Shown here: piece by piece, positions 1,434 through 55,491 of the stretch | Layout of the letters: each line of letters begins with the position of its first letter | How positions within the stretch are numbered: the stretch's first letter is position 1 | Assembly (NCBI GenBank): GCA_000004985.1 | Contig: GG738854.1 | Direction: 5' to 3' (one strand) | Length of the DNA stretch: 64,000 nucleotides | Source of the DNA: Naegleria gruberi | Lineage: Eukaryota | Program-made: the position numbers and the translations under genes | Notes under the pieces: generated by a model | Told to the model about the DNA's origin: nothing | Database searches by the model: none | What the model saw: the letters and a program-made list of their open reading frames with translations, nothing else

Positions 1434-2611
1434 ATGATACAACAGCTGGATAGCGACAGCCTTGCAAATATTCTATCCTTCTTTCCAACGAAAGATTGTT
1501 ATTTCGTCTACTTTAGTTTACAACATTCTTGTAAGAATTTATATAGACAGTTATCAACAAGACAATCACCACTAGAGCCTAAAACTATCCAACAATTTCT
1601 TCATTCCGATCAAGAAAAATTCCATCATCCGATAGTCAATTTCCAGAATTTGAAATTTCACTCAAATTATTGGAAAGTGATTCGAATGAGTGTTTTGATA
1701 AATTGGAACAATTCTTTTCAAATATTTTGGATAAAGACACTGAGAATGAAGAGAGCGTTTATTACGTGAATAGAATTTCAACAGAAGAACACAAGTCAAT
1801 TAGACAATATTTAAAGGAATGGATTGAAAAAGTGCCAAATATCGTTAACAATATTTCAATGAATGTTTGTAGATTGACCAAAGAAATCATTCTTCATTTA
1901 CAAATTGTTAAAGAATGTGATGATAGAAAGGGAATTCCAGGAAGAGTTGTCAATATGAAAGATTGTATCAGTTTATGGAATATTCATACAAAAGTGGAGG
2001 GATTGCATTCAAGAGGAAGACCAATTAATGTTGATGAGTATGGATATGTTCCTCACAATTGGAATCCTATTTATGGATATGTTTATCTAGGTGGAGATAT
2101 TGGAATGTTGCTCTTGTATTATTTGGTGAAGAATTGCTTGGTTGAGTGGATGGAAGAACGAGCAACAATTCAATTAGATATGTTATATGATAAGGAAACG
2201 ATGAAAATATTGAAAGAGCAATGGATTCACAGTGATAGAAGGGAAAGAATTGTGGAATACTTTTTTCAATTGATTGTCAAAAAAAGGCCCATTGAAGGAA
2301 TTCAAGTTTCACAAAATGAAGATTTTATCAAGTTTGAATTTGAAACTCTAAATATGGAAAAGAATATTTGGAAAATGAAAAACAATCAAATATCCTTGCC
2401 AAGATTTCCTTCAACTGAACTATCTCTTATTTCACATGTAAGGCCTCAAAATCTGAGGTTTTTCAAGATTCCACTGCTTGGAAGAGTAGATAATTGGTTT
2501 CTTTCGAATATTTGCGCGAATGCATGGTGTTGTCCTTTGAGTGTTTCAGGAATTTGTTGTAGTTGGTGTTTTACTGATTTATGCTGTTACAAAAGGGTAG
2601 GTTTTAATTGA
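1434..2611 (+). CDS. F-box-like N-terminus with polycysteine C-terminal tail; paralog of 40724..42460; reading frame shifts near 1590-1670 (possible pseudogene or indel)
   Basis: ORF 1434..1769 (MIQQLDSDSLANILSFFPTKD, F-box-like) and ORF 1670..2611 are in different frames. Both align to consecutive parts of the 578-aa paralog at 40724. The second frame is open back to about 1583. No plausible GT..AG intron joins them. C-terminus AWCCPLSVSGICCSWCFTDLCCY. Confidence 0.45.
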
Positions 2612-2858
2612 ATCTTATAATTATTGAACATTTGACAGAGTATTGACTTTTCAAAAATTTGGGGATGGCATCACTTTGCTTGCTGTTTGAATTTTCTGTG
2701 TAGATCAGAACACAAAATATGTTTCACACTTAATTTGGATAATTGTTGGATGGTTTGTTTTCCAGAAGGACGAGAAATAATGAGAGAAACCTACACAGAA
2801 GAGGATAAAAGAGATTTATTCTAACATATGGTTTTCATAAATTGAAAGCAACAAAATT

Positions 2859-2948
2859 TGATGCGAGTGGGATTTGAACCCACGCCCTTGCGGAACACGG
2901 TATTAGAATACCTTAACGTGTCGTCTTAGACCACTCGACCATCGCACC
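2859..2948 (-). tRNA. tRNA-Leu (anticodon most likely AAG), class II with long variable arm and a putative 10-nt intron at position 37/38
   Basis: Reverse complement reads GGTGCGATGGTCGAGTGGTCTAAGACG..ACACG TTAAGG[tattctaata]C CGTGT..GTGGGTTCAAATCCCAC TCGCATC A. Acceptor stem 7 bp with one G-U pair, Leu-type D-loop GAGTGGTCTAA, T-loop TTCAAAT, 11-nt variable arm. Confidence 0.7.
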
Positions 2949-3321
2949 ATCGAATATTTCAAACAAAATGGTTAAGACAACAGTTAAAAGAGAATTTCAA
3001 AGAGAAAAGCAAGTTGAAAGAACCATGTTAAGACTACAGTTTGGTTAATGGGTTCGAGGATTTTACAATCAATCTGTTCACTAATGACTTTTCTTGAATG
3101 ATATAGATTATTCTGAATTCTGTTTGATTAATAATAATTAATTTAATTATTGAAAGTAAAATTTTGATGGAACTATCTGTTGCTCAATGATGTCGGTTAG
3201 CACAATTAGGTGCCTTTTCAAAATATTATCGATACTATTCGAAAGGAAAATAATCCATAATATTTGTGTGTGAAAACAACAAGCTCCATCTCTTCTCTTT
3301 GAATTCATTCAAATGATTCAA

Positions 3322-7830: not shown

Positions 7831-9222
7831 ATGACTTCAAGTGTACAACCATCTACTCCACCTCTAGGCGCAACAGGAGTTGATGAAACAACACCTCTCT
7901 TTGAGAGTACTCTCCTTATTGAAGATCAGGATAATTTGTTAATGTCTGATCTCAAGAATAATCAAGAAAGTGCCCTATTCGAAACAATTGATAAGGATAA
8001 TATTGACAGCAACTTTACCATTGAAGCGAATACTTCTGGTGGGGTTGATTTTGATGCAAATATATTCAATGATGAAGAATTTGGCAATTTAGCATCTGCC
8101 TTCACAACTGAAACAAAGGAAGAGGAACAAGTGGCAAAAAGTCCAATTCTCATTGAAGTTCCCTCCAATGCAAACTTTTTCAATATGAAAAGCTCACAAG
8201 AATATACCATTGAGGAGGATCAACCATTCCTTGAAACCTTTGAAATGCACCAGGAGAAACTCGAGCAAGAAGAGAAACCTTCTGATGTTGCCCCTTTCAC
8301 AGATGCTTCTGAATCTTCGTTCATGGCTGGAACTTCTAATTTGAATGATAAGATGGATATGGCACCACCAACTAGATTGAAATTCAGTGTTGAAGGATCT
8401 TACACATCCTCATCCACAACAGATCCACTAACCTCATTCACAGCTCCCAGTATTTCAATAATGGAAGCTGATGATAATCCCTTTTCATTAACTTCTCCTC
8501 AGGACTTTTCCTCAAATGTTTCATCGAATGGATCAACAAGTGGATTTTCAAATAATCATTCTGCTAGATCGTCTGACAACTCTCCTCCCTCCAAATCAGT
8601 TAAAACTGAAAACAAGTCAAGTGCAAGTCAGAGATTGGAAAGAGATGATGACTTGTCTGGTTATACTTCAGATGTGTCATCTGAGGAGGGAGAACAGAAA
8701 CTTCCTGGTATTTCCAAAACTCCCTACTTTGAACTTCGAATCACACTTTCACAATTCAACTTTTTCAGAGTTGTGAGAGTACCTCAATTGGTAAATCTCA
8801 ACGATTTGTATATTATTTCAATGGAAGCACTGGATTGGGATGATGATAAGTATAGAGAACATCCACATTATTTCAGAGATGAAGGTGGAAGAATCTTCGC
8901 CAGCTCAATACGTACATTATCTAACATTCCACCTGAAGAAGAGGACAATGTTAAAGATGAAAAGACCTATCTTTTAAATCAGGTGCTCAAGCATGAAAGA
9001 AGTACTCTCACGTTGTACTATTCCAGTAAGAAGGAGTGGATTGTCACTATTGCCCTTCAAGAAATATTCGATGAGAAGCCACCCAAAGACAAATACTCAC
9101 AAGCGGTTTACTGTGTTTCTGGGCGAGGAGGGGGCATTAGTGAAGTAGACTCATCCAAGGAAGGTAAATTTGATAAATCCAGTGTAAACAAACGTCTACA
9201 AGAAATCAAACCCACCGAATAA
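7831..9222 (+). CDS. Acidic, serine-rich hypothetical protein (463 aa)
   Basis: ATG at 7831 with A-rich context. Long non-repetitive ORF. No recognisable domain. Confidence 0.5.
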   Translation: MTSSVQPSTPPLGATGVDETTPLFESTLLIEDQDNLLMSDLKNNQESALFETIDKDNIDSNFTIEANTSGGVDFDANIFNDEEFGNLASAFTTETKEEEQVAKSPILIEVPSNANFFNMKSSQEYTIEEDQPFLETFEMHQEKLEQEEKPSDVAPFTDASESSFMAGTSNLNDKMDMAPPTRLKFSVEGSYTSSSTTDPLTSFTAPSISIMEADDNPFSLTSPQDFSSNVSSNGSTSGFSNNHSARSSDNSPPSKSVKTENKSSASQRLERDDDLSGYTSDVSSEEGEQKLPGISKTPYFELRITLSQFNFFRVVRVPQLVNLNDLYIISMEALDWDDDKYREHPHYFRDEGGRIFASSIRTLSNIPPEEEDNVKDEKTYLLNQVLKHERSTLTLYYSSKKEWIVTIALQEIFDEKPPKDKYSQAVYCVSGRGGGISEVDSSKEGKFDKSSVNKRLQEIKPTE

Positions 9223-9256: not shown

Positions 9257-11108
9257 TTAAGGCCAGACACCAACTTCATTGTAACTGGAAGCAACATTTT
9301 CAATGGCAGAAATGTAAGCAGCAGTTCTCAAATCAACGTTGTGCTTTTCCTTAACTTGCTTCAAGGTTTCCCATGTTTCATGCATGACACCTTCCAAGCC
9401 AGAGTAGACATAGTCAATTTCACCAGAACCAGAAGTGAGAACAAGATATTCAAGATCAGAAAGCTTCTTCTTACCAGACAATTCAGTGATAGCATCAACC
9501 ATTTCACGCTTATAATTTTGTTCAGCTCTACGAGTCATTCTACCGAATTGGACGTGACCCAAATTCTTCAACCATTCAAAGTAAGAAGCAATGATGCCTC
9601 CAGAGTTGACATAAATATCAGGAATAACTTCTTGACCATTCTTCTTTAAAACTTCATAGGCATCAGCAGAGATTGGCATGTTAGCACCTTCAACAATAAC
9701 CTTAGCACCGACTTCATGAACATTTTGAGCATTGATTTGATTTTCCAATGCAGAAAGAATGAGAATATCACAATCAACCTTCAACAATTCCTTAGGATCT
9801 CTGAGGGAGACTTGAGCATCTGGATATCCCATCAAAGTCTTCTTAGTTTGTCTGTGCAACAAAACTTGTGAAACATCCAAACCATTTGGATTATAGATTG
9901 AACCAGTAGAGTCGCTGACACCGACAACAATGGCACCTTGTCTTTGCAAGAATTTGGCAGTGTGGCTACCAACTCTACCAATACCTTGGACAACAACCTT
10001 TTTACCGAGCAAAACTCTGTCATCAGCAATTCCTTCCTTGTCAGAATAAAAATCACGAATGGCAAAGTACATTCCCTTACCAGTGGCTGTTTAAGGAAGC
10101 ATTTCACAAAATAATCCAAATATTCCAAAAATAAGAGTATGACCATTTTCGAATTATTACAGTTATGTTTTCATGAAATTTCACATTCATACATACCTTC
10201 AACACGACCTCTGACACCTCCTTGTGAAACTGGTTTACCAGTAACAGAAGCAAAACTGTTAATATTATTTGGGAAGAATGCTCTATAGGTATCTTGAATC
10301 CAGGACAACTCTCTTGAAGTGGTTCCAATATCTGGTCCAGGAACATCAACTTCAGGGGACATTACACCTCTTGTGAAGAGTTCTGTAGCATATCTTCTTG
10401 TAATTTTTTCCAATTCGATTGGATTATAGTCATTGACATCAATATCAATACCACCTAGCATGAAGAAATGCAAACAAAATATATTTCAATGATTAATCAT
10501 ATTTTCACAAGTGTCAATGACAAAAGTCAAAGTGCACAAAATCAATAATAATAATAAAAATTATCATGCAAATAATGAATGTGAAGATCAACAATATAAA
10601 TAATATTGAGAACAGTTATTCTTGAAAAAGCCATTCACATAAACATACCTTTAGCACCTCCGAATGGAATGTTATTCAAAGAACACTTCATAGTCATCAT
10701 CATTGACAAACCAACAATATCGTCTCTGGTCAATCTGGTATAACGAATACCACCCTTGCAAGGAAGACAATGACGAGAGTGTTGTGCTCTGTAAGCTCTC
10801 AACAAGGTAACATCCTTATCAAACTTATTCAAAGAGTGAGTTCTTCTCACTGGAATTACAAATTCATAAACAGCTTCAGGTTCCTTGATGTATTCTAATA
10901 AACCTTCTGGATATTGATTTTGTTGTTGTACAATACTGGCGGCCTTGTCATAAAAATGATTGACGTTAGTCAAGAGATTGAATTTTTCTCCTACTTGATC
11001 AGTTGATTTACAAGCCTTTTGGCAACTATTAATACTAGATAAAACAACACCCTTTGATGATGAAGTCTTGTTCAAGAGTGGTGTTGTAGTAGTGATCAAA
11101 TGCTTCAT
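9257..11108 (-). CDS. Glutamate dehydrogenase, mitochondrial/animal (GLUD)-type, 3 exons: join(9257..10086,10197..10454,10649..11108), about 515 aa
   Basis: Strong family motifs: RAYRAQHSRHCLPCKGGIRY, PFGGAKGG, ELEKITRRY, VTGKPVSQGGVRGR, VVQGIGRVGSHTAKFL, SGGIIASYFEWLKNLGHVQFGRMT. Exons are in phase 1/1 with donors GTATGT and acceptors CTAG and AACAG. Introns are 194 and 110 nt. N-terminal presequence-like MKHLITTTTPLLNKTSSSKG. Confidence 0.9.
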
Positions 11109-11578: not shown

Positions 11579-13223
11579 CTAATGTGAAATTACACTAAAT
11601 ACCAAATAAATCAAAGAAATAAATACCAATGAAATGAACGAGAATGAAACAGTGTTTGCTCCAGCACAAATGAATCTATCCAAAGGAAGAACATAGGCAC
11701 TGGTGGAATATTTCAATTCAGATGGTCCATAACCAGTGAATGTCATTTCAATAGTGAATGCAGTATAACCAATCTTTGGATTTTCCACATCAACACTCCA
11801 TGTCAATGAGTCAACCTCAGTCAAAGTCTTGGAATTAAAGATGGATCCAACATGACTGTATCTGAAATCTCTCGAATAAGTATTTGTTCCGTACCATAAC
11901 AATACCTTACTTGGTTTAATTCCATTTGTAACCTTAACCCAAATTCTGAGTCCATTCGAAATAGTTTCATTGTAGAAAGTATATTGTGGAAGAAGTGAAT
12001 TTCTCGTGGTTGCATAGTAATAAGCAAGGACTGATTGGGGAACATCAGATCCAGCTAAAGAGTGTCCAGTATTAGGCACATAACGAATATATTTTGTGGA
12101 CAATCCTGGAATTTGTTGATAACTGAACAAACTCAAATCTGGCCACATAAATTCATCTCCCATGGCATTGATCATATAGGTTGGTATATTTGTATACCTA
12201 TCTCTATAATTGAATGGATCGACAGCTTGTGCCAATAAATCAAATGCAGTAGTATTCAATTGATTTAAAACTCCTAAATTTTTGTAATCTTGCAAAGCTT
12301 CTGGCCAAGCACAAATTGATTTGTTAATATGTAGGAAACATTCTTTCAAATTCATTATTTGAATAACAATTGGAATTAAACTCTTAATTCTAATTAATTG
12401 AAATTATTTCCAACCATTTCGAATATTAGAACTCAACCATTCTAAACTTGTTTAAACTTACCTTGAATCCCTACTAGCTCCAACCAACCAAGTAGCCCAA
12501 CCACGTTTACTCGTTCCAGCAATTGTAAATTTTTCAATAGAAAATCCAATTTGCTTACTCACAAAATCCTGAATCACATCCATCGCTCTAACTGATGTCT
12601 TGGCCATTGCAAAATGAGATAACCACTCATAATCTTCAACATTGTAAACTGTTCTATTCATGGCCATGTTATTATTCATTCGCTCCATAAATTTCATCCA
12701 CGAGAAGGACATGATTTGATCTTCAGATCTACTAGTTTTGGAACTATCTGATGCGAAAACAATTGGCTGATTTGGAACGGATAATAACATGGAAGAAACT
12801 GTTTGCGAATTTGTGGAAATTGCTTGAAGAATTGCATTTCCTGTTGGCATTTCCATTCCAGTTTTTCCTGCTTCGATTAGTAAGAAACCTTCCTTGATGG
12901 ACCGATCTAGAGTTTTAGGAATGGAAATTAGTAGATAGTGTGACCTATTCATGTGTTGGAAAGCTTTCGAATAAATTAACTTACCAAGAAGAGGCTGAGC
13001 CAATTTCTGCATCTGTTAACCAGTTGACACCTCGCATGGTGATTGTGTAGAAAGTGCAATCGGAATAGGTAGTTGTAGCTGAGATGGAATAGGACATGCT
13101 TGGGGAAGGTTGCTTTAGGTACAAATCGAACATTGTGTCTTGAGAAGAAACTTGAAGAAACAAGACACAACCAAGCAAAATAAAAGAAAGTGAACGAATG
13201 GCAAGATGACAGCTCGAAGACAT
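11579..13223 (-). CDS. PhoPQ-activated pathogenicity-related (PqaA-like) secreted serine hydrolase, 3 exons about join(11579..12380,12462..12944,12985..13223)
   Basis: Signal peptide MSSSCHLAIRSLSFILLGCVLFLQVSS at ATG 13223. Nucleophile-elbow motif IAGTSKRGWATWLVGA. C-terminal hydrophobic tail. Introns of about 40 nt (GTAAGT..AATAG) and 81 nt (GTAAGT..TTAAG). The three ORF-track pieces 12981..13280, 12458..13012 and 11579..12355 join in matching phases. Confidence 0.6.
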
Positions 13224-13443
13224 TTTTTTTTGGAAAGTTATTGAAAGAAGATCTATTAGAAAGCAAAAGGACTTTTGCAATTAGAAATCTTTCCAATAAA
13301 GTTGACTTTTCTCTTTCCACATTCGAATTGTAAAGAATATTCAAATTCGTTGAAATTCTCTCTGAAATTCCAACAGAAAGAATTCTTTAAAGAAAAAGTT
13401 CATCTTTGTAAAAATTTATTGATGATCAAGAACAATAAAAAAA

Positions 13444-14342
13444 ATGAAAATTCAAATACTGAGTGATTTGCATATTGAACATTTTCCTTCCCTCTCTGAT
13501 TTTCAAGCACAATATAAGAATCGGTATGGAAATTATTTATGTGAGACGGTCTATGGAGAGGTTCTGATACTTGCTGGAGATATTGGTGATCCATTTCAAC
13601 AGAGTTATTTCGATTTTATGCAATATTGTTCGGGGAAGTATAAAGCAGTGATGGTTATTGCTGGAAATCACGAATTTTATGGACATGAATATTTTCAAAC
13701 TATTGATCAGATTAGAAATTTGACCAGATCATTTTCAAATGTATATTTTTTGAATAGAGATGTGGTTGAGTTGACCATTGATGGGAGCTCACTTGTGTTT
13801 TTAGGTTGTACTCTTTGGAGTCATGTACCAGATAAAGCGTTAAATGTAGTTCAGAATGTAAGTGAAATAATATCTATTATCAATACTGAATCAATTACTA
13901 GTCAATGAATGATTACAGATGTATTAGTATTAATAATAATGGAACATTACAATTATTGAATGTTTATCATACGAGTCAAATGTTTAAACAAGATTTAAAT
14001 TGGATTCATTCAGAATTGAAAAAGCACAACACTAAGAAAGTTGTAGTTTGCACTCATCATGCCCCTTTTGTTAAAGGAGTAGCATCACCTTATTACGAGA
14101 ATACCACTGACGAGTCAACCCTTTTGAGCAATCATGCTTTTGCTTCTGATCTGAGTAAGATAATTTCCAATCCTCCAATAATACTGTGTGTATTTGGTCA
14201 CACACATTATTCATCAATTCAGGTTGTGAATAATGTTTATTTGGCAAGTAATCAGCTAGGTTATATTGCAAAAAACTTTTCATCTGAGAAGTCTGATAAC
14301 AAATACAGGGAGGATCTTTTCTATGATAGTGTCAATAAATAA
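13444..14342 (+). CDS. Calcineurin-like metallophosphoesterase, 2 exons join(13444..13857,13902..14342)
   Basis: MPP motifs DLHIEH, ILAGDIGDP and IAGNHEF in exon 1; VFGHTHYS in exon 2. A 44-nt intron GTAAGT..ACTAG (phase 0) is needed to keep the domain contiguous. Confidence 0.65.
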
Positions 14343-14344
14343 AT

Positions 14345-15472
14345 CTAGTTGAATGTATTCCACAAATTCATCAAAGTTCTGTCCTTAATAGAATAAGGAA
14401 CATCCAAAATTCCTCTCAAAATCTTGAGCATATCTAACCCCATCGTTAGTCCAAGGAAACCAGCAATTTCACCAAACAAACTTTCAATTGAAGAAGTGAC
14501 AACCTCGGTAATGTAATTCACATTCAATGTAGCGTATGCAACAGATATCACAACCAATGTTTCGTCTGCTCCAATTAGCTCAACATCAGAAGTTACAGGC
14601 TCCCATCTAACATCGACTAATTGTGGATTAATAGGAGTTGTTTTTAATCTTGAAGTGATAATTTTGGTCAACATGAAATAATTGTCTCTTCTTGGAACTG
14701 CAAAGTTTGTTTCTCCAACTAGATCAGGCATTGTTCCATTTGAATGGAATGACACCTGCAGGCCAACTCTCGAGTAGTCGCTTACATCTGATCCTGTTGG
14801 TCTTGGTACTCGAACAAAGAATGACAAACTACCAGTATAACCTGTATAATTTGCAGTCACAACATTAATGGATCGATTGTTGAAAACATAGCACCTAAAC
14901 AATGAATCATCTTGTCGTATTTCCTTATATTCAGCTTGTTGTAGGTATTCAGGAATATCTTTTTGGATATCAGCCCTAAACACTTTCTCCAATCTCAGCC
15001 CACAATAACTACAGTTATTTGTTAGTGCATTCCAATTACAAATTGAAATAGCTGGAAAGGGAAGCGGTACCTCCTCAACATATGACAAAGAGGTGGTTGG
15101 ATTATTAATCGCATCCACAAAGTTCACAATTGAATTAATCGAATACCATAACGAAACACCAATCATTACAATCCAACCAATAGCTGTTAATATCTGATAC
15201 CATCTCAGAGGTATCTGCCATCCACAAATAGTTCTCTTTCTTTTGTGCTTTTCAGATTCTGCAGGCTCATTATTTCCAAATTGATTATTCGTATTATTCT
15301 TAGATTTGTTTCCTCCAATAATTACATCAAATAAGGATAAATTCTTTGAGGATTTTCTTTTCGATAATTTCTTTCCAATTGTTGGAATTTCCACTTCATG
15401 AGGTGAATCCAATCGGGTAGTATTTTGTTGAGCAACTTGTTGAGGGTTATTTGAAGAATTATTCTTCATCAT
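14345..15472 (-). CDS. ENaC/degenerin (amiloride-sensitive Na+ channel superfamily)-like small channel subunit
   Basis: TM1 ILTAIGWIVMIGVSLWY followed by PFPAISICNWN (hallmark FPAVTIC-like post-TM1 motif). A Cys-containing extracellular region of about 200 aa. TM2 with G-x-S-like filter LFGEIAGFLGLTMGLDML. Paralog of 16011..17177. Confidence 0.6.
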   Translation of the reverse strand: MMKNNSSNNPQQVAQQNTTRLDSPHEVEIPTIGKKLSKRKSSKNLSLFDVIIGGNKSKNNTNNQFGNNEPAESEKHKRKRTICGWQIPLRWYQILTAIGWIVMIGVSLWYSINSIVNFVDAINNPTTSLSYVEEVPLPFPAISICNWNALTNNCSYCGLRLEKVFRADIQKDIPEYLQQAEYKEIRQDDSLFRCYVFNNRSINVVTANYTGYTGSLSFFVRVPRPTGSDVSDYSRVGLQVSFHSNGTMPDLVGETNFAVPRRDNYFMLTKIITSRLKTTPINPQLVDVRWEPVTSDVELIGADETLVVISVAYATLNVNYITEVVTSSIESLFGEIAGFLGLTMGLDMLKILRGILDVPYSIKDRTLMNLWNTFN

Positions 15473-18998: not shown

Positions 18999-19338
18999 AC
19001 TGGACTAATGGGCTTGAATGTTGTCTAATGTTTATTAGATTTTCATTGATTTTCCAGTTTTACAATGAAAATATGTGGAAAAGAAATGAGTCATTTCTCA
19101 TATTCGAATCCTTTTTGATTGTAATAATTCCATTGTCCAATCATTTCCTACTCGTCACTTTTAAACCATTACAATTCTGGTTAAGGCCAGATTAGTAGGT
19201 TTGGAAATCAAGTTGAAAATAAATTCCAAATTGATTTTTTATTTTTAAATTCATAAAAAAATTCAAGAGAGTTCTCTTAACAAGCACAAAATAACGTCAA
19301 GTTTAACGCTATTTTCCAAACAAAACCACAGAAACAAC

Positions 19339-20676: not shown

Positions 20677-21804
20677 TTACAAATCTACAACAACTTTACC
20701 ACTCTTTTCACCAGTGAACAAAGATTGTAAAGCCTTTGGAATATTTTCAAGCCCAGTAAACTTGGTTTCGAATGCCTTAAGCTTTCCTTGCAACAACCAT
20801 TGAACAAGTTGAGCAGTTCCTTCTTGGAATCGTGGCATGAAAGATGAGATAATAAATCCCTGAGTCTTCAATTCTCTAACAACATGGATTGTACTCAATC
20901 TCAAACCAGTTTCTGGATTTTGTTCATTGTAACTGCTAATAGCTCCACAAAATGAAATTCTACCTTTACAATTCATGGCCAAAGTTACAGCATCCAAAAT
21001 AAATCCACCAGTATTATCAAAATAACAATCGACACCTTTTGGACATTCTTCATCAATGGCCTTCTTCAACTCATTGACATTATTATTGAACTTTTTGTAA
21101 TTAATGACAGCATCAAATCCATTTTCAAGCAATTCCTTAACATTGTCATTTCCTGAAATACCAACAACTCTACATCCTAAAATTTTACCAATTTGTCCAA
21201 CAACACTTCCAACAGCACCAGAAGCAGCACTAACGACAATAGTTTCACCTTCCTTAGGAGCACAAATATCAATCAAACCAAAATAGGAAGTCAATCCTGG
21301 CATACCCAAAACACCCAAAAAATATGAAAGTGGAATTCCACTTACACCTTCTAATTTTCTCAAATAAACACTCTTATCACTCAAATCAACAACTTGTTCT
21401 AATACCCAAGGTAATGCACCATAGACAATATCTCCTTCCTTATAAGTTTCGGCAAGTTTAGCACCAACTTTGACAACCTTAGCAACAGCACCACCACTAA
21501 CTGGTTCATTGAGTGGGTATGGTCCAAAATATCCTTTTGGTGGTTGTGCACTCATTCTAATTCTCATATATGGATCTATTTTCAATGAATTTCATTTCCA
21601 ATCACGAAAAATTACTCAATTAAACAACTTATTAAATTTTCAATCTCACATACCAACAGAAAGATGCAACAAACGAACAACCAATTGTTCTTCACCCAAT
21701 TGATCAACATTTGGTAAAGCAATTTCTTCCAATTTGAAATTATCCTCCTTAATCAAACCTTCAGGATAGGAAACCAAGAGTAAACGTTTATTTGTTGTGG
21801 ACAT
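20677..21804 (-). CDS. NADP-dependent oxidoreductase of the MDR/zinc-binding dehydrogenase family (prostaglandin reductase / leukotriene B4 12-hydroxydehydrogenase-like), 2 exons join(20677..21575,21654..21804)
   Basis: Exon 1 MSTTNKRLLLVSYPEGLIKEDNFKLEEIALPNVDQLGEEQLVVRLLHLSV. Exon 2 DPYMRIRMS..GMPGLTSYFGLIDICAPKEGETIVVSAASGAVGSVVGQIGKILGCRVVGISG. This aligns along its full length with PTGR1. A 78-nt intron GTATGT..AAATAG in phase 1. Confidence 0.85.
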
Positions 21805-24621: not shown

Positions 24622-25744
24622 TCAAAAGACCCAATGCTTATCAACATAAAAGAATGAAACATTTGGATGAGTCGATTGAACAAATTTCAAATATTCACTC
24701 TTCAAACTCCAATAACTTTCTTTATCCAATGGAAGAAACAAAACACAATAATTCTCCCTCGATAATGGATCATCTTTGTGTTCTCTAAAATAACCATCAT
24801 CTCTAAAGAAAACAGTTGATTGAGGACCTTTCTTCCAACTAAAGAAGAATAGTTCCTTCTCCTTTGAAATTGGGTTGAGTAAACGAGAGAGGCAATTTCT
24901 TAAAAGTTCTGAATGCTCGTTGTTGTTTCCAGTTATGGAAATGTCAGAGTTTAGCTCGTTGGTGACCCTATCAAATAAGTTATGAGATAATTCTTGTGGA
25001 TCGTTGTCAGAAGCATTTGAAACTCTTACAATATTTTTTTACAAGTCTAAAAGGCTTGGCTTGGGGACAACAAAAACGGGACATGAAGAAAATTGTTGGA
25101 GGACATTTCTCAAGATGTTGTTGCAATCACCAATAGTGAAATCCTGTGTTGGAAAGCAACCAAAAAGTGAAGAGAGGCACTTCATTGTTGAAGTAGTTTG
25201 GTTTTTTTCAAGAAGTTTGATGAAATTAAAGTTTATTTTGATGAAAGTGTAACGTCTTCTTTCATGGCGCCAACTAATGTAACATGTCTACGTATACAGT
25301 TTCAATCCTCTCTACAAAATACACGACAACGTCACTCGGATTATCACCATCTTCCACAACATTAAACAATGACAAGAATTTTTGAATTTCCTCTTTCAAA
25401 TGAGTTGGTTGACCTAAAATTCGAATCGAAATATTTTGGTCATGTTGATGTTTCACAATCTTGTGAATGGTTTGATGAATATGATCGAAATCTTTTTCTT
25501 TCTGAACGAAAAGAAAGTAATTTTCTGGAATGTTGCTGAATATGGCTTCTTTCTTTCCAAATGAAACAAAAACAACTTTTTCTTCTATTCGAAACTGTAT
25601 CTGAATCTAAAATGAAAGAAACCTACGGTTTTTCTTAAAGCATTCCTCTAAAGTTTCCAAAGATGGTCGGCATTCAGTCTTTTGGGTTGTGTTTCTACTC
25701 CACAAACCACGAAAATTCTGAAGAAAGGTCTGAAAGATCTGCAT
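24622..25744 (-). CDS. Unresolved multi-exon gene or pseudogene, minus strand: several open segments separated by stops
   Basis: Minus-strand segments MQIFQTFLQNFRGLWSRN.., IQIQFRIEEKVVFVSFGKKEAIF..VDMLH*, MKCLSSLFGCFPTQDF.., and ..FFFSWKKGPQSTVFFRDDGYFREHKDDPL..YVDKHWVF*. Candidate short-intron boundaries exist, but phases could not be reconciled by eye. Confidence 0.25.
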
Positions 25745-25930: not shown

Positions 25931-26116
25931 CTTAAAAAAAATGGTCTAGTATTGTCATAGACACAGACGCTATTATTAATATTGGAAATCTTTACCAATG
26001 GCTCGAAAAAAAATCATCACTCAGTAAGTTTCTTCCACATTCGTATTTCAATTTTATCAGAACAAAAACCTTTGGTCATTATTACAAACCATGAAAAAAT
26101 CCCCAGCTCAACAAGA

Positions 26117-26668
26117 ATGGAATTAAAGGAATCTCTGTCTAACCTAATCCATGAAAATAGAATTTTCTTTTTTGAAAATCATATCAACTTGGAAACTGAC
26201 ATTCCATCAGAAAAGAACAAAATCATTGACTTGATGTTACAAAAAATTGAGGTTGAAAACATGAAATATAATCCTAACAAAAAGTCTACCAACATTCTTG
26301 TGCTTGGACCTCAACACTCTGGAAAATCTTCAACAATCAACACTTTGGGTAAATATTTCAATAGACGAATCCAAGTTGCAATTTGTGATGTTGGACGAAA
26401 GGCAGATGTTGGCACAGTTCACTATGAAAAATTTCATCTCGGTTCCTCTAATGGTCATGAATATCACATCTTTGATACTGCTGGTAAACCATTCGAAAAG
26501 GGAATGGATGGAAATGATGTGAATCAAATTCAAAAGTTAATGCATGGATTGCCAACAGGTGTAAACTTGTCACTTTCTGAATGGATGAATTCAGAAATTG
26601 TTACAGAAAATGCAGTTGGATTTGTGTTCCTTGTTGTCAGTGCTGAGGTTCTTACAAAGCGTAGATAG
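26117..26668 (+). CDS. Small P-loop GTPase-like protein (G1 GPQHSGKSS, G3 DTAG)
   Basis: ORF 25982..26668. Plausible ATG at 26117 (MELKESLSNL..). NILVLGPQHSGKSSTINTLG Walker A motif. HIFDTAGKPFE switch II. Confidence 0.5.
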   Translation: MELKESLSNLIHENRIFFFENHINLETDIPSEKNKIIDLMLQKIEVENMKYNPNKKSTNILVLGPQHSGKSSTINTLGKYFNRRIQVAICDVGRKADVGTVHYEKFHLGSSNGHEYHIFDTAGKPFEKGMDGNDVNQIQKLMHGLPTGVNLSLSEWMNSEIVTENAVGFVFLVVSAEVLTKRR

Positions 26669-27508: not shown

Positions 27509-27581
27509 AAAATGAATCGCCCACCGTGGGGGTCGAACCCACGACCACAAGGTTAAGAGCCTTGCGCTCTACCGACTGAGC
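27509..27581 (-). tRNA. tRNA-Lys (anticodon CTT)
   Basis: Reverse complement GCCCGTCTAGCTCAGTCGGTAGAGCGCAAGGCTCTTAACCTTGTGGTCGTGGGTTCGACCCCCACGGTGGGCG. Canonical cloverleaf. Anticodon loop CTCTTAA. Confidence 0.9.
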
Positions 27582-27937: not shown

Positions 27938-28999
<1,062 letters not shown>

Positions 29000-30405: not shown

Positions 30406-30437
30406 AGAAAATTCCTTGCAACAAAACTAAACACATG

Positions 30438-33287
30438 TTAATGTTGAATTTCAATATAGCAATGAGATCTACCTACCTTATAAATTAACTCTCTTCCCTC
30501 TCCAGTTCTATCACCAATTGTCTTAATTAACAAGACAGTTATTGGATTCTTTCCAGTAATTGTTGCTTTTTTATCTTGCACAGAAGTTCTGGTCTTCCAT
30601 TTTCTTCTCTCCACGATAAGCTGCATAAACACAACAAATCCACTCGTCAATAATACGTAGCAATAATCAAAAAGGAAATACAAGGTACCATGTGTACCCA
30701 ATATAGTCAATTTCAAACTTGTTCTCCAATTTGGTATATCTATCATACCCACTACAAAAGTTGAAATTCCAATTAATAAACTCAAGGAAGTAACTATTAG
30801 GAATTCTGATCTGTAACATAGAGGGTCATCATAATCACTAAAGTACGTTTGAAATCCACAAGAAAGCTCTTCCATTTTCCTTGTTTTCGATAGGACCTTA
30901 CTCATGTATGTGGAAATATTACTATCACCAAAATTGAAAATTCTCTTACAAAAGTCATAGAATAACCATTTCCTGTTAATAAACAAATCAAAAGACAATG
31001 CAATAAATCCTGGAAGTACAAATCCAACAATCAATGCTGCCAGTTTCACATAGCCTATAATAGAGACAACCACTGAGAATGTATCTCCAGAACTAGAATT
31101 GAGTATCCATAAAAAGAATGGTGTTGGTAAATTTACAATAATGATTAGACTGATAATAGCCGACAGGTAAATTCTCTTAGATGCCAACTTGGATAAAAAC
31201 CTCATTTGCATAGTTTTCCTCTTGTAGTTTGATACGAGTCCTTCGTCGTTAAATTCTCCAACTGATATTACTGTATCTTCCATCTTGTCTACAATTCTAA
31301 TAACTCTATATAAATTACGAACAAATGTGTATCTTATCAACGATACCAAATAGAGCATAGCAAGTGTTAAATAATATGAATATTCAATAGCATCATAATT
31401 AAATACTGAATAGATATCGCTGATAACTCCCAACGCATTGAAAATTACACTAATGACAGCACTGATCATGGCTGTGTGAAGTCTACTTTTGACAGGTTGC
31501 TTTTGTCTGTAAATGAAGAGAAATCCTACTACAAGTAATGAAAAAATTCCAACAATGGTATGTCTTACTGCTCTTATGTAATAGTAAATTTGAAACATTG
31601 ATGTTTGATAGATTTGAACGTAGTAATCACAATCTTCATCATAATAATCAACAGAAAAATCTACTTCATGAGCTAAATAATAGGATTGAAGAGAGTCCTT
31701 ATTCATATAGGAATTGAGAAAATCTTGCTGACCTTGCATGGTAGTATTTTTGTATCCTGCGTTAACTATTGGCATGAAATAAATAAAATATTTGTGATCT
31801 GTTGTGTTGTTATTATCCTCAGAGAATGTACGAGTGTTGGGTAAATTCTTTGGTCTGACAATTGAATTCAGTCTCTTTTCAAAGTAAATATATGTTCCTC
31901 CTGTATAGGGCGTTACGTCGTGTATTTGATAGACACAAAACTTGGAATATTCACTATAGGTACCATTCAAATTCACTCTTTCACCAACTGCAGTTGGAGA
32001 AAGAGCCATATTAACATCATCATTACAAGTTGGATAATGATCATAATTTTTCACTGTCGTAATTGTTCCTGTATATTTTCTCAGATAGGGGTTTGAACTG
32101 TTATCATAGCCCACATAAAAAGAAGGAAATCCATCTCCATAAACAGCATGAAAAGTTGCTTGTGGTTGATTCATAAAATCCAAAACCTTAATCTTTCTAT
32201 TATCCTTAATATTCTTATCGAAAAAGTATCGATACTGAACCCCCTTTTCGTCTGGTTTCGATGTCTGCAAGTTATTATATATCTTATCAAACCCTGCATC
32301 AGCTGTAATACCTTTAGAAAATCCAAAAAGCTTGAAATTTCCTGCACTAATAGACAAATTTGCCTCTCCAATAATGATTCTCATTCTAACTACAGGATTC
32401 ACATTTGGATTCTGAAACCTTGAACTCTGCGTATCATTGAAGAGGGGATAATAATTCTGAAAGGTATGATTGGATATGAATTTCCATTGTAAAATAGCTC
32501 GTCCCTTCTTATCACCATCAAGTGGCAACACTCGACAATGGGTAAATTTCTCCGATATTGTATTAATTGATAGTGTTGTTCCATTATTCCCATAAGTGAG
32601 TGCATCACCCTTTGTTAAATTCCAAAACTTTTCCACTAAATTATTCCTCCGAAATTCATTCAATAATTCCAATGATGATGGTGATGATGGCAATAATTGA
32701 AAGACACTAATTACTATCGGAAGAGAAATAATCATGAGCAAAAGCAGTCTTAGTACTTTCTCCTTTCCAAAGCACGTTTGTGCCAGCAAGCCAAGTTGTT
32801 CCGTCTTCACAAGCTTTGGAAGCAGCTTACTGTGAAACGCTTCATCATCACAATTTTCTCGACTTGTTATTACTTTATCCACAATTCTACCTTCCTCCAC
32901 ACCATCATCATCAACACCATTATTATCATTCTTTATTTCCGTCCGTTCAAAACAAACATCATCCTCATCGCCATTATTCTTATAATTATAATTCTTATCA
33001 TCGTAATTATTATTACTATTTTTCTTCAATAACAATTCCAAGCTATTATCAAGAGTATTGCCATGAATATTATAACATTTCCCAAAGTTTTGATTTTTTA
33101 CGGATTGAATATCTTCCTCATCATGGTTGAGATGATGAATTGGATAATGATGATGATGAGATCGAATGATGTGAATCATGTTGTTCAGAAGTATCACGAT
33201 AAATGGAGGAAAAAAGTTCACGATAGAATGGTACTGAGAGGATTCTTTGAACCAACTGCTGGTTATTGTCGAGTTGTTGTTGTTCAT
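30438..33287 (-). CDS. Large multi-pass membrane glycoprotein, 7-TM receptor-like with large N-glycosylated ectodomain
   Basis: 949-aa ORF with ATG at 33287. Signal/anchor LRLLLLMIISLPIVISVFQLL. Ectodomain of about 450 aa with many NxS/T. At least 7 hydrophobic helices in the C-terminal 380 aa. Confidence 0.45.
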   Translation of the reverse strand: MNNNNSTITSSWFKESSQYHSIVNFFPPFIVILLNNMIHIIRSHHHHYPIHHLNHDEEDIQSVKNQNFGKCYNIHGNTLDNSLELLLKKNSNNNYDDKNYNYKNNGDEDDVCFERTEIKNDNNGVDDDGVEEGRIVDKVITSRENCDDEAFHSKLLPKLVKTEQLGLLAQTCFGKEKVLRLLLLMIISLPIVISVFQLLPSSPSSLELLNEFRRNNLVEKFWNLTKGDALTYGNNGTTLSINTISEKFTHCRVLPLDGDKKGRAILQWKFISNHTFQNYYPLFNDTQSSRFQNPNVNPVVRMRIIIGEANLSISAGNFKLFGFSKGITADAGFDKIYNNLQTSKPDEKGVQYRYFFDKNIKDNRKIKVLDFMNQPQATFHAVYGDGFPSFYVGYDNSSNPYLRKYTGTITTVKNYDHYPTCNDDVNMALSPTAVGERVNLNGTYSEYSKFCVYQIHDVTPYTGGTYIYFEKRLNSIVRPKNLPNTRTFSEDNNNTTDHKYFIYFMPIVNAGYKNTTMQGQQDFLNSYMNKDSLQSYYLAHEVDFSVDYYDEDCDYYVQIYQTSMFQIYYYIRAVRHTIVGIFSLLVVGFLFIYRQKQPVKSRLHTAMISAVISVIFNALGVISDIYSVFNYDAIEYSYYLTLAMLYLVSLIRYTFVRNLYRVIRIVDKMEDTVISVGEFNDEGLVSNYKRKTMQMRFLSKLASKRIYLSAIISLIIIVNLPTPFFLWILNSSSGDTFSVVVSIIGYVKLAALIVGFVLPGFIALSFDLFINRKWLFYDFCKRIFNFGDSNISTYMSKVLSKTRKMEELSCGFQTYFSDYDDPLCYRSEFLIVTSLSLLIGISTFVVGMIDIPNWRTSLKLTILGTHGTLYFLFDYCYVLLTSGFVVFMQLIVERRKWKTRTSVQDKKATITGKNPITVLLIKTIGDRTGEGRELIYKVGRSHCYIEIQH

Positions 33288-33493: not shown

Positions 33494-36107
33494 TTACATG
33501 ACAAGACAATTTCTATCTGATGAATTATTCATCTTTTTACCTAAACTCTTGTTTCCAGAAGATGAAGGTTTCTGGTGATGTCTATTGACATTGGCATGTA
33601 CAGGTGCATTTGGATTGTGTGATCCGCCAAGAATGGATTTTATCACTTGTACATCATCCTCATCATACTCATCAACCAAATGTTGTCTTTCACCATCTTC
33701 CAGTAAGCTATCATAAGCATCCTTTTGTTCTTTCATGTATTGGAATACTTTCTGTTCATTGTCTTGTTGTTTGGATCTGGCAAGAGTGAATTCTTCATGG
33801 ACTATGGTGATGGTTTCGATCAAGTTTTGATCTAATTCAGCTTCCAATTGCTCTTGTGTGTAATTTGTAAAGTTTCTGGCAATGAGATGGATACAACATT
33901 TTTTGACAATTTCAGCTTGACACATTTCAGCAACTTGACACATTTGTAAAACGTTGGAAGGTTGAAGATAGAGGACAATCTTTCTCTCTGCTGCAAGTTT
34001 GAGTGTATCAATGTTAAATCTGGTAGCCAGTTCAAGGAGAGGTACACTTTGCTCAGCAGTCAACTCATTATCATTGATATTTCCACCTGTGTAAATGTGT
34101 TTCAATAGAATTTCGAATGAATCTCTGGTGGTGCTGTCGAGGTGAATAACCTTTTGGAAACTTTCACTGAATTGACCAATGGAGAACATGGCTCTGAAAT
34201 ATTCCAATCTGGCACATAAAATACAACGATGTGATCTGATAAATGTTCCATCATCCAATGAAAAACTCACGTCTGAGAGGAAGGAGAAGATGGTATCAGC
34301 TGCTGGGTCATTAAGTCCTGAACTTTCTCTCATTGCCAATTTGTACAAATTTTCAAAATCTCTGGTATAATCACTCAGCTCTCCAAGAAGACTGCTTGAT
34401 CCCTTGACTTTTTCATGGATCATTTCTTTGGAAACCACCTCAATCATTGTAGCTAGATCCTTCTTATTCTCATCAGATATATCCTCTTTTTTTAACAATT
34501 CTGTCAAAATTTTGGTAGCTGCTTGTGTATTGTTAATATGTTCATTAATGATGAGAAGCATTCGTTCATTCTTTGCTGAACGACCAGTTGCATTGGTATA
34601 AATGAAATTCAATAGTTCATCCAATTCTTCTTGACTTTCAACAAAATCCAGGGTAATTACTCTTTCAATGTGTGATGTATCTGTGACCTTGAATTTTGAT
34701 GATTGATTATTATTCGATTCCAAATATTCCTTAATCAATAAACTTGTAAATAAAGGACTACGGGCACTAAGAATGGCAGCATGGCAAACAGCTTCATGTC
34801 CATTCTTTGATTTGAGAATACAATCAGCATAGTATTGAGTTTCTTTCAAAAGTTTGGTATAACTTGCTGTGAAACTCATACCAGTCACTAAAAACATATT
34901 GTAACCACCAACAAAAACATCACCAATATAAGTTTCAGCAATGGAACCGACTGGAGTTGGATCATTAACATATTTACCGTGACCATGCCCCAAATTAAAG
35001 TGCAAATTGTGTCCCCAAGAGTAGACATTTCCATCATTGGTCAAGACAATAAATGAACTGTATGATGAGGCAATCTTTTTGATATTTCCTTTTGAAATTG
35101 GAATGCTCACCATTGTGGGGTTCATAATTTCACTGTTTGCATCACTGAGATGATCATTCTTTTCAGTTTTTGCTGTTTTAATTCTTCCCCAAACATAAAT
35201 ATTACCCAAATTATCCAAAGCCATTGTATGTCTCATTCCACAACTCACTTGAACCCAACGAGAACCACTCTCAGCATATGGATGTTTCACTTCAACAATT
35301 TTTTCCTCACTAATATGAGCACTACCGTCCTTAGTCACTTGGCCATCACTATTTTTACCATAGCCAAACAATTTTCCACTCTCAGTCAATACAAATCCAT
35401 GGTGAGTTCCACAATTCACACTGGCACAAACCTCTGAATCAATCAATGAATTTCTCACCATGACAGGTTTATGTCTATTCTCCAAACCCCAAGTGAATAA
35501 TCTTCCATCCTCACTCACAGCAGCCGAATGTCCTTCACCAGCTGCACAATCAACAATTCTATGCGAAAACAAGTATTGAATTGGTTCTGGTATTCCACAC
35601 AATGAAGACATTCCGTGCCCACATCCCATTCCAAAGCCGAAACTAAATAAAGTTCCATCACAAGTCAAAACGAGTGAATGTGTCTTTCCAGCACTTGCTT
35701 TCAATACACGATGATGTGCACTTGTACTGAATGGTTCTTTAACTTCGATCGGAAGTGTATAATTTAAAATATCAAGAGATTCAGGTTCACCTAAACCAAG
35801 AGCACCATATCTATTTCTTCCAACTATTCCATTTAGTTTAGAATAGTTTTTTATATGATTAATTATAAAAAGATCAAATGATCATTACACTACCTCCATA
35901 AAGATGTCCACTTGTAGTAACAATCAGAGAATGCCACAAACCCACCGAAATAGACTGAATATCGAGAGACGAAAGTTGTGGAGATTCCACCAATGTCGTC
36001 TGAGTTTTATAAGTATCAAGTGCTAAACCACCAAATCCTCCGAAACCAACTTGCTACTGTTGGAAATGTATTTCTATTAGAAACTTACCAGCAAGAGTTG
36101 CAGACAT
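33494..36107 (-). CDS. RCC1-repeat plus tandem BTB/POZ protein (RCBTB-like), at least 3 exons about join(33494..35823,35894..36037,36089..36107)
   Basis: RCC1 repeats GLWHSLIVTTSGHLYGVGRNRYGALGLGEPE and HSLVLTCDGTLFSFGFG. Two BTB cores GHEAVCHAAILSARSPLFTSLL and RSHRCILCARLEYFRAMF. Micro-exon 1 ATGTCTGCAACTCTTGCTG|GTAAGT. Exon 2/3 junction GGAG|GTAGTG..AATGGAATAG|TT in phase 1. The exon-2 acceptor is ambiguous; the intron is 51 or 67 nt. Confidence 0.65.
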
Positions 36108-49740: not shown

Positions 49741-49961
49741 TTTTTTTGAAGTTATTTTTTCAACTAAATTTTTGATGAAGCGAAAACGAATATCATCACC
49801 ATCAGGAATATTATTTTTTATTTAGTGATTTTAAATTCTAATCCTAAGTAGATGGTATTGTTTAAAAGTTTTAAATATAAGATACATATTGTTCAATATT
49901 ACAATCATTTCATAATATTAAATAGAATTTAATTAAACATTATGTAGAAGGAATTAAAAAA

Positions 49962-53797: not shown

Positions 53798-54049
53798 CTT
53801 GGACAATATGGTTGCAAAAAAGTCCTCAACTGTCGAATGAACGAAAGTAGCAGACACTCCATGATGAATAGACCCAAAATTTTGTTGTGCCTCTTCAATA
53901 TGGACAAGATTAGTATCGACACCCACATATTCAACTGTTCACTGTATTATTTGGGCAGTAGCAATTTTGTACCAGGTGAATTTTTAGGCATACCTTAAAC
54001 TTTGTGCAAGATCAAGAATACTTGAATAAAAGAGTCACAAGCTAGTGTA

Positions 54050-55417: not shown

Positions 55418-55491
55418 TTTTTTAATTAATATAATACTAATTAAACTATTGCATAATAATTATAACATTTGGTAATCACACATTTGTTAGT

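What the first reader, a model, noticed from the sequence alone, without database searches (positions are those of the whole stretch)
12945..12984. Class of ultra-short spliceosomal introns (38-44 nt) coexisting with 70-194-nt introns
Joining ORF-track pieces by conserved protein domains requires introns of 40 nt (PqaA-like gene, GTAAGT..GAATAG), 44 nt (metallophosphoesterase, 13858..13901), 44 nt (51775..51818) and 38 nt (53380..53417). All start GTAAGT and end TAG or CAG in the correct phase. Other introns in the same window are 70-194 nt (GDH 194 and 110, PTGR 78, pirin 97). Introns this short are near the lower limit for spliceosomal introns. They explain why the ORF track fragments several genes.
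Basis: partly seen in the sequence, partly recalled or inferred. Interest (0 to 1): 0.5.

Follow-up and report, generated by a model that had tools for sequence, protein, structure and literature searches.

The report
Ordinary short introns of Naegleria gruberi
The four 38-44-base interruptions are real, canonical GT-AG spliceosomal introns in genes of the amoeba Naegleria gruberi; they are the common short size class of this genome, not a record, and the only new point is that one public gene model misses one of them.

Summary
Each starts GTAAGT and ends TAG (none ends CAG). Removing each one restores a reading frame that is collinear with homologues.

The window is Naegleria gruberi NEG-M: nine proteins derived from it match GenBank EFC proteins exactly.

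Evidence that these are true introns:
- The splice junctions rebuild invariant residues (W80 in the PhoPQ-related protein, N828 in the 1223-aa protein).
- N. lovaniensis or N. fowleri have longer introns at the same position and phase for three of the four.
- An independently assembled second strain from a metagenome carries the interruptions it covers.

- 37-45 nt is far above the known lower limit (15-16 nt in Stentor).
- The short introns are the largest size group in this window, not a rarity. I found two more (37 and 45 nt) in the same gene, plus weaker candidates of 42 and 50 nt.
- Two of the four, and both extra ones, are already in the public model EFC47449.1.

The small new point is that the public metallophosphoesterase model EFC47438.1 (154 aa) stops inside the unrecognised 44-nt intron. 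The spliced protein is 284 aa.

No transcript data could be checked. Interest is low.

The parts
12945..12984 (-). 40-nt intron 1 of the PhoPQ-related (PqaA-like) gene. GTAAGT...ATAG, phase 2, splits the W80 codon as TG|G.
   Evidence: W80 is invariant, H82 nearly invariant, and the alignment is gapless across the junction in 11 homologues, including intronless bacterial ones; the N. lovaniensis orthologue has a 91-nt intron at the same codon and phase; the segment is identical in a second strain.
12390..12461 (-). 72-nt intron 2 of the same gene. GTAAGT...TTAG.
   Evidence: the join ...GASRDSR|IKSLIPIV matches homologues, with D239 and R241 invariant. N. lovaniensis has an intron of about 183 nt at the same place; the donor is GTGAGT in the second strain.
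11579..13223 (-). PhoPQ-related (PF10142) gene. Three exons, 510-aa product with an N-terminal signal-like segment.
   Evidence: PF10142, E = 9e-85, one stretch covering profile positions 4-367 of 367 across both junctions; homologues found.
13858..13901 (+). 44-nt intron of the metallophosphoesterase gene. GTAAGT...CTAG, phase 0. Not present in the public gene model.
   Evidence: the alignment is gapless in 12 of 13 homologues; the Metallophos hit runs 1-241 across the junction. N. lovaniensis has a 98-nt intron at the same place; the public model EFC47438.1 is the unspliced 154-aa ORF.
13444..14342 (+). Metallophosphoesterase gene. Two exons, 284 aa.
   Evidence: Exon 1 carries the GDxG and GNHE motifs; exon 2 carries THHAP and GHTH.
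50706..50742 (+). GTTAGT...AAAG, phase 0.
   Evidence: YIQDIK|YLRHIPSK aligns with N. fowleri YIHNIK|FLKFIPSK; the intron is in the exact public model. N. fowleri has a 47-nt intron at the same place.
50809..50853 (+). GTAGGT...CTAG. Its length is a multiple of three, and the in-frame stop is its own terminal TAG.
   Evidence: the join ENFEKYL|MDAKYY; exact public model. N. fowleri has a 168-nt intron at the same place.
51775..51818 (+). 44-nt intron. GTAAGT...TTTAG, phase 0.
   Evidence: the N. fowleri orthologue is one continuous ORF across this point; exact public model; 41 nt in the second strain, with both splice sites kept.
53380..53417 (+). 38-nt intron. GTAAGT...TCTAG, phase 1, splits the N828 codon as A|AT.
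   Evidence: N828 is invariant. N. fowleri has an intron of about 100 nt in the same codon and phase (A|AC); exact public model.
49962..53797 (+). Five-exon gene for a 1223-aa protein found only in Naegleria and Willaertia. No Pfam domain.
   Evidence: the spliced product equals EFC47449.1 / XP_002680193.1 exactly; homologues found.
10455..10648 (-). 194-nt intron of glutamate dehydrogenase. GTATGT...CTAG.
   Evidence: the spliced product equals EFC47563.1 exactly.
10087..10196 (-). 110-nt intron of glutamate dehydrogenase. GTATGT...ACAG.
21576..21653 (-). 78-nt intron of the PTGR-like oxidoreductase gene. GTATGT...ATAG.
   Evidence: the spliced product equals EFC47567.1 exactly.
61858..61954 (-). 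97-nt intron of the pirin gene. GTAAGT...AAAG.
   Evidence: the spliced product equals EFC47577.1 exactly.
35824..35893 (-). 70-nt intron of an RCC1-repeat/BTB gene. GTAGTG...ATAG.
   Evidence: an RCC1_2 repeat at residues 37-65 spans the junction HLYG|VGRNRYG. My whole-gene model was not found in the public set.
30427..30476 (-). Probable 50-nt intron joining a 937-aa membrane region to an RGS-like tail. GTAGGT...TTTAG.
   Evidence: a weak RGS hit (E = 3.9e-4, below the Pfam cut-off) at residues 930-1025 spans the junction at 937/938. Neither the spliced nor the unspliced product is in the public set.
2597..2638 (+). Candidate 42-nt intron. GTAGGT...ACAG. Unverified.
   Evidence: The only support is that it joins two open frames; there is no Pfam hit.

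Best explanation
These are ordinary U2-type (GT-AG) spliceosomal introns in nuclear genes of Naegleria gruberi NEG-M. They belong to the genome's short-intron size group of about 37-50 nt.

**How they most likely work (inferred).** They are recognised across the intron ('intron definition'). The main signal is a strong 5' splice site, AAG|GTAnGT(T), which pairs with the U1 and U6 snRNAs. The 3' end is usually TAG, chosen as the first usable AG downstream of a weakly defined branch point. There is no polypyrimidine tract.

**Shown.**
- Removal is required for function. Each unspliced transcript meets a premature stop.
- Splicing rebuilds conserved residues and complete domains.
- Intron length changes freely between species: 40 against 91 nt, 44 against 98, 37 against 47, 45 against 168 and 38 against about 100. 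Position and phase are conserved.

**Inferred, not shown.** That the segments are removed from RNA, and the recognition mechanism.
For: - **Source organism.** Four single-exon ORFs match EFC47439, EFC47445, EFC47447 and EFC47448 of N. gruberi exactly.
- **Boundaries and frames.**
- **Domains restored.** PF10142 and Metallophos each give one continuous hit across the junctions.
- **Alignments across the junctions.** Gapless for the PhoPQ-related protein and the metallophosphoesterase, including against intronless bacterial homologues; gapless against Willaertia at the third junction of the 1223-aa protein. The invariant W80 and N828 codons are split by the introns.
- **Orthologous introns.** Same site and phase in N. 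lovaniensis and N. fowleri. N. fowleri has a continuous ORF across the 51775 site.
- **Public annotation.** My four-intron model equals EFC47449.1 exactly, and the GDH, PTGR-like and pirin models also match.
- **Independent assembly.** A second strain, 98-99.4% identical, in metagenome ERR1078381 has the same interruptions. Four are identical and one is 41 instead of 44 nt with its splice sites intact.
- **Splice signals.** Donor consensus G at -1 in 10/13, GTA in 12/13, G at +5 in 12/13, T at +6 in 12/13. Acceptor TAG in 10/13.
- **Chance control.** Real signals exceed decoy signals.
Against: - No transcript evidence was available here. Exon-junction 24- and 27-mers for the two genes whose spliced products I could not find in the public protein set found nothing in the metagenome contigs.
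- The branch-point motif yTnAy is not enriched over shuffled introns: 8 of 13 observed against 8.5 expected. The branch point is therefore unidentified.
- The public annotation treats the metallophosphoesterase as a 154-aa unspliced ORF, so the annotation pipeline did not call this intron.
- The size grouping rests on only 14 introns from one 64-kb window.
Confidence: 0.92

Rival explanations
1. The interruptions are frameshift or insertion errors of sequencing or assembly, or mark decaying pseudogenes, and the GT...AG ends are coincidental.
For: Five of the six short segments change the frame, as an error would. I had no read-level data for the NEG-M assembly.
Against: - The same segments appear in an independently sequenced and assembled strain.
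- Orthologues in two other species have introns at the same codon and phase.
- The 45-nt segment is a multiple of three and carries an in-frame stop, which is not a frameshift.
- All have GTAAGT-type donors, and these hexamers are 2.4 times depleted elsewhere in the window.
- The flanking exons are intact and conserved.
Confidence: 0.01
2. For the metallophosphoesterase (and possibly the PqaA-like gene), the public view is right. The upstream ORF is a complete short gene (154 aa), and the downstream ORF is separate or untranslated. The 44-nt segment is not spliced.
For: EFC47438.1 is exactly the unspliced 154-aa ORF. No spliced transcript was found.
Against: - The 154-aa product lacks the C-terminal THHAP and GHTH metal-binding motifs that are invariant in the family.
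- The downstream ORF continues the Metallophos profile to position 190 of 191.
- The join is gapless against 12 homologues.
- N. lovaniensis has an annotated 98-nt intron at the same place.
- A N. gruberi paralogue model carries a 20-aa insert exactly there.
Confidence: 0.04
3. The 37-50-nt introns are a mechanistically separate class, handled by a different recognition route from the 70-194-nt introns. This would resemble human short introns that use SPF45 in place of U2AF (recalled from memory), giving a truly two-peaked genome-wide length distribution.
For: No intron of 51-69 nt was found in the window. The short introns lack a polypyrimidine tract and a recognisable branch-point motif. N. 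gruberi's published mean intron length is 203 bp (PMC8296547), far above these lengths, which implies a very skewed or two-peaked distribution.
Against: - Donor and acceptor consensus look the same in the short and long introns of the window.
- The long introns also lack a polypyrimidine tract.
- Orthologous introns move freely between the size ranges across species, for example 45 against 168 nt. This argues against a class-specific requirement.
- A sharp minimal-length peak with a long tail is the norm in compact genomes.
- There are only 14 introns.
Confidence: 0.1

Closest known systems
Annotated spliceosomal introns of Naegleria gruberi NEG-M (JGI/GenBank gene models EFC47449.1, EFC47563.1, EFC47567.1, EFC47577.1)
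   Different: The 44-nt intron at 13858..13901 is absent from the public model EFC47438.1, which is a truncated 154-aa ORF. I could not find the public model of the PqaA-like gene among 11 exact-match variants, so the status of the 40-nt intron there is unknown.
'Minimal introns': the narrow peak at the lower end of the intron-length distribution in compact genomes (for example fission yeast, C. elegans, Drosophila; recalled from memory)
   Same: A tight cluster of lengths (37-50 nt), a strong 5' splice site, AT-rich content (20-31% GC), recognition presumably across the intron, and coexistence with a tail of longer introns.
   Different: The peak here is seen in only about 8 introns from one window. 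Its genome-wide position and width were not measured.
Truly ultra-short introns: Stentor 15-16 nt, myxobolid myxozoans with medians of 22-27 nt (PMC13644364); Paramecium and the Bigelowiella nucleomorph (named as extremely-short-intron species in PMC3488318; their lengths are from memory)
   Same: GT-AG spliceosomal introns in a microbial eukaryote, with weak internal signals.
   Different: The Naegleria introns are 1.5 to 3 times longer, are not uniform in size, and keep a strong extended 5' splice site. They are not at the known lower limit.
Orthologous introns of N. lovaniensis and N. fowleri
   Same: The same codon and phase for five of the six short introns.
   Different: They are longer: 91, 98, 47, 168 and about 100 nt, against 40, 44, 37, 45 and 38 nt. 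The intron at 51775 is absent in N. fowleri.

Membership tests
U2-type (GT-AG) spliceosomal introns | GT at the 5' end and AG at the 3' end | tested here: met
   All 13 tabulated introns, including the four claimed.
U2-type (GT-AG) spliceosomal introns | Extended 5' splice site complementary to U1/U6 (GTAAGT-like) | tested here: met
   GTAnGT in 12/13 and G at -1 in 10/13. The four claimed introns are all GTAAGT.
U2-type (GT-AG) spliceosomal introns | Branch-point adenosine in a yUnAy context about 10-40 nt upstream of the 3' splice site | tested here: inconclusive
   8 of 13 introns have a yTnAy with its A 8-30 nt from the 3' end, but shuffled introns give 8.5 +/- 1.6. The metallophosphoesterase intron has none.
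U2-type (GT-AG) spliceosomal introns | Removal restores a reading frame collinear with homologues | tested here: met
   Invariant residues are rebuilt at two junctions.
U2-type (GT-AG) spliceosomal introns | Position and phase shared with introns of orthologous genes | tested here: met
   Five of the six short introns. The sixth lies where N. fowleri has uninterrupted coding sequence.
U2-type (GT-AG) spliceosomal introns | Absence from mature mRNA | not testable with these tools
   No RNA-seq or EST data are held. Junction k-mer scans of the metagenome contigs found nothing. Indirect support only: exact agreement with the public model EFC47449.1.
U12-type (minor) introns | 5' end (A/G)TATCCTT and a TCCTTAAC branch site | tested here: not met
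   None of the intron sequences has this 5' end.
Ultra-short ('tiny') introns under 30 nt, as in ciliates, nucleomorphs and myxozoans | Length below about 30 nt with a very narrow size range | tested here: not met
   Verified lengths are 37, 38, 40, 44, 44 and 45 nt, against 15-27 nt in the comparison groups (PMC13644364).
'Minimal intron' peak of a compact genome | A narrow mode at the lower end of the genome's intron-length distribution | tested here: inconclusive
   8 of 14 introns in the window are 37-50 nt and none is 51-69 nt. A genome-wide distribution was not available.

The most novel reading that the evidence does not exclude
Naegleria gruberi may have a genuinely two-peaked intron-length distribution: a tight class of about 37-50 nt that lacks a polypyrimidine tract and a recognisable branch-point motif, alongside longer introns. 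A sizeable share of the short class may have been missed by the 2010 annotation. Here one of four genes is certainly affected, a paralogue probably is, and a second gene possibly is. If so, many public N. gruberi proteins are truncated or carry in-frame intron translations, and the published mean intron length (203 bp) misdescribes the genome.
Probability: 0.2. Interest if true: 0.3.

Novelty: already known. Interest (0 to 1): 0.1.

Why it matters
It matters little for biology. Short GT-AG introns are expected in a compact protist genome, and most of these are already in GenBank.

There are two practical points:
- Gene models of N. gruberi, a widely used reference for reconstructing the early eukaryotic gene set, can be truncated where a 40-60-nt intron was missed. 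EFC47438.1 is 154 aa where the homology-supported product is 284 aa. A paralogue model appears to translate a 60-nt intron.
- ORF-based scans of this genome will split genes at such introns.

Neither point opens a new question.

Tried and rejected
- **Fetching the source locus.** Exact look-ups of window ORFs in the contig index found nothing, so N. gruberi DNA is not on record there.
- **Self-hits.** The three homology searches returned no hit to the window's own genes, so the organism was identified only later by exact cluster look-ups.
- **Public model of the PqaA-like gene.** Eleven exact variants were tried and none is in the collection: full length with the 72- or 81-nt second intron, exons 2-3 from three start codons, single exons, and a read-through form. 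The representative search returned only a 184-aa ORF from the second strain.
- **Transcript evidence.** Exon-junction k-mers for both genes whose spliced products I did not find in the public protein set gave 0 hits in the metagenome contigs.
- **Branch-point motif.** No enrichment over shuffles.
- **Abutting same-strand ORFs.** The pairs at 15462/15505, 33299/33497, 37051/37202, 45806/45819 and 55459/55495 have no credible donor. I treated them as separate genes.
- **Candidates without a consistent model.**
  - 25585..25626 (42 nt): no homology support, and another gene may lie on the + strand.
  - GTAAGT at 26024: no start codon or phase fits.
  - GTAAGT at 36088: the frame works only with a 39-nt intron ending AAG that skips three earlier AGs.
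  - 19195..19271 (77 nt): the join fails.
- **GTAAGT at 21345.** This lies inside the PTGR-like coding sequence and is not a donor.
- **Literature.** I found no published N. gruberi intron-length histogram, and the 2010 genome paper is not held.

Full report
**What is there.** The four segments lie exactly at the stated coordinates.
- 12945..12984 on the minus strand is GTAAGTTAATTTATTCGAAAGCTTTCCAACACATGAATAG, 40 nt.
- 13858..13901 is 44 nt.
- 51775..51818 is 44 nt.
- 53380..53417 is 38 nt.

All start GTAAGT and all end TAG. None ends CAG, as the finding allowed. None is a multiple of three, and read-through meets a stop after 1, 16, 2 and 12 codons respectively.

**Source.** The window is 33% GC and gene-dense. 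The best homologues were heterolobosean proteins at only 40-53% identity, because the homology search returned no self-hits. Exact look-ups settled the origin. Four single-exon ORFs equal Naegleria gruberi proteins EFC47439.1, EFC47445.1, EFC47447.1 and EFC47448.1, all on one 665,159-bp scaffold.

**Gene by gene.**

*PhoPQ-related (PqaA-like) gene, 11579..13223, minus strand.*
- Removing the 40-nt segment and a second intron of 72 nt (12390..12461) gives a 510-aa protein with one continuous PF10142 hit (E = 9e-85, profile positions 4-367 of 367).
- In an alignment with 11 homologues, including intronless bacterial ones, there is no gap at the junction.
- The invariant W80 codon is the one split by the intron (TG|G), and H82 follows.
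- The N. lovaniensis orthologue has a 91-nt intron in the same codon and phase.

*Metallophosphoesterase gene, 13444..14342.*
- Splicing gives 284 aa, with the Metallophos profile matched from position 1 to 190 of 191 across the junction.
- The alignment is gapless against 12 of 13 homologues.
- N. lovaniensis has a 98-nt intron at the same site.
- The exception is a N. gruberi paralogue model, P0121. It has a 20-aa insert (VGVKISKFHNFTTSFSNIFK) exactly at this junction. Its first residues, VG, fit a GTAGGT donor and its final K fits an AAG acceptor, so it is probably an untranslated 60-nt intron that the model reads through. This is inference; I did not see its DNA.

*Gene at 49962..53797.*
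- The five-exon product of 1223 aa is identical to EFC47449.1. All four short introns of this gene are therefore already in the public annotation.
- N. fowleri has introns at the same position and phase for three of them: 47, 168 and about 100 nt against 37, 45 and 38 nt. The last one splits the invariant N828 codon in both species.
- N. fowleri has an uninterrupted ORF across the 51775 site.

**Are they artefacts?** No. Metagenome ERR1078381 contains contigs from a second strain, 98-99.4% identical to the window, assembled independently.
- The 37-, 45-, 38- and 40-nt segments are present and identical.
- So are the first 29 nt of the metallophosphoesterase intron.
- The 44-nt intron at 51775 is 41 nt there, with both splice sites intact.

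As a chance control, real donor hexamers followed by AG at 30-55 nt join long open frames 10 times, from 7 donors. Permuted hexamers with decoy dinucleotides give 2.9 +/- 2.5, even though the real hexamers are 2.4 times rarer in the window. GTAAGT itself occurs only 16 times on both strands, and six of those are the 5' ends of verified introns.

**Size distribution in the window.**

| Status | Lengths (nt) |
|---|---|
| Verified short | 37, 38, 40, 44, 44, 45 |
| Probable | 50 (30427..30476; a weak RGS hit spans the junction) |
| Unverified | 42 (2597..2638) |
| Verified or supported long | 70, 72, 78, 97, 110, 194 |

The GDH, PTGR-like and pirin products match public proteins exactly. The short introns are thus the largest group, not an oddity. 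Most genes in the window have no intron at all. Fourteen introns cannot show that the distribution has two peaks. A sharp minimal-length peak with a long tail is the usual picture in compact genomes (general knowledge).

**Signals.**
- Donor: AAG|GTAnGT(T). G at -1 in 10/13, A at +3 in 12/13, G at +5 and T at +6 in 12/13.
- Acceptor: TAG in 10/13.
- No polypyrimidine tract. Intron GC is 18-31%.
A yTnAy with its A 8-30 nt from the 3' end occurs in 8 of 13 introns, against 8.5 expected from shuffles.
- In the 37-nt intron, an earlier TTAG lies 4 nt after a TTAAT and is out of frame. The AAG that is used lies 14 nt after it, which fits exclusion of an AG too close to the branch point. This is inference.

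**Comparison with what is known.**
- These lengths are not near the lower limit. Stentor introns are 15-16 nt, myxobolid medians are 22-27 nt, and about 30 nt is the conventional animal minimum (PMC13644364). A Giardia intron is 35 nt (PMC1201135 abstract).
- For N. fowleri, a 30-bp minimum intron was set 'based on an assessment of predicted genes'. The same paper lists mean intron lengths of 126-144 bp for N. fowleri and 203 bp for N. gruberi (PMC8296547).
- I could not find a published N. gruberi length histogram, and the genome paper is not held.

**What is new, modestly.**
- The public model EFC47438.1 is the 154-aa unspliced first ORF of the metallophosphoesterase. It lacks the C-terminal THHAP and GHTH motifs and should be a 284-aa two-exon protein.
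- I could not recover the public model of the PqaA-like gene from 11 exact-match variants. If a model exists, it differs from the homology-supported one. Accession numbering suggests one does exist; that is inference.

**Limits.** No transcript data were available, and junction k-mer scans found nothing. Removal from RNA is therefore inferred from homology, from orthologous intron positions and from the public model, and was not observed.

**Verdict.** The feature is already known and of low interest.

Noticed in passing
window 13444..14342 (+): The public N. gruberi protein EFC47438.1 (154 aa) is the unspliced first ORF of a metallophosphoesterase. The homology-supported product is 284 aa after removal of the 44-nt intron, so the public model is truncated.
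   Followed up: yes
protein P0121 (N. gruberi paralogue; not in the window): The model has a 20-aa insert (VGVKISKFHNFTTSFSNIFK) exactly at the conserved intron position of the metallophosphoesterase family. It is probably a 60-nt, stop-free GTAGGT...AAG intron that the model translates through.
   Followed up: partly
The 45-nt one is a multiple of three, and its only in-frame stop is its own terminal TAG.
   Followed up: yes
L004/L005/L006/L007 (metagenome ERR1078381, PRJEB11402) against window 49841..51976, 52153..55431 and 11887..13886: An environmental metagenome contains contigs 98-99.4% identical to this N. gruberi scaffold, so a second strain. The intron at 51775 is 41 nt there, and the donor of the 72-nt intron is GTGAGT.
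   Followed up: partly
whole window, both strands: Splice-donor hexamers are depleted. GTAAGT, GTAGGT, GTTAGT and GTATGT together occur 78 times, against about 190 for same-composition permutations. GTAAGT occurs only 16 times. This is consistent with selection against cryptic donors.
   Followed up: partly
L001, L002, L003 against the window: In all six comparable cases the N. gruberi intron is shorter than the orthologous N. lovaniensis or N. fowleri intron: 40/91, 72/183, 44/98, 37/47, 45/168 and 38/100. Yet N. gruberi has the larger published mean intron length. The sample is biased, because most cases were chosen for being short in N. gruberi.
   Followed up: partly
window 26024 (+) and 36088 (-): Two more GTAAGT sites sit at gene 5' ends: a GTPase-like ORF at 25961..26665 and the RCC1/BTB gene. 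Possible introns of 37 and 39 nt follow them, but I could not build a consistent frame or start codon.
   Followed up: partly
window 2858..2949 (-): A 92-nt tRNA gene scores 47.9 bits against Rfam tRNA, but ARAGORN could not assign an anticodon. It is probably an intron-containing tRNA. Three ordinary tRNA genes (Lys-CTT, Trp-CCA, Ala-AGC) lie at 27518, 39214 and 43862.
   Followed up: no
window 7831..9222 (+): A single-exon 463-aa ORF carries a PRiA4_ORF3 domain (plasmid pRiA4b ORF-3-like, E = 2.5e-11), a family named after a bacterial plasmid protein. Its exact sequence was not found in the contig index.
   Followed up: no
window 14345..15472 (-) and 27941..28999 (-): One ORF matches the N-terminal part of the amiloride-sensitive sodium channel family (ASC, E = 1.4e-14). 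The other is a polyubiquitin gene with four repeats. Both appear to lack introns.
   Followed up: no
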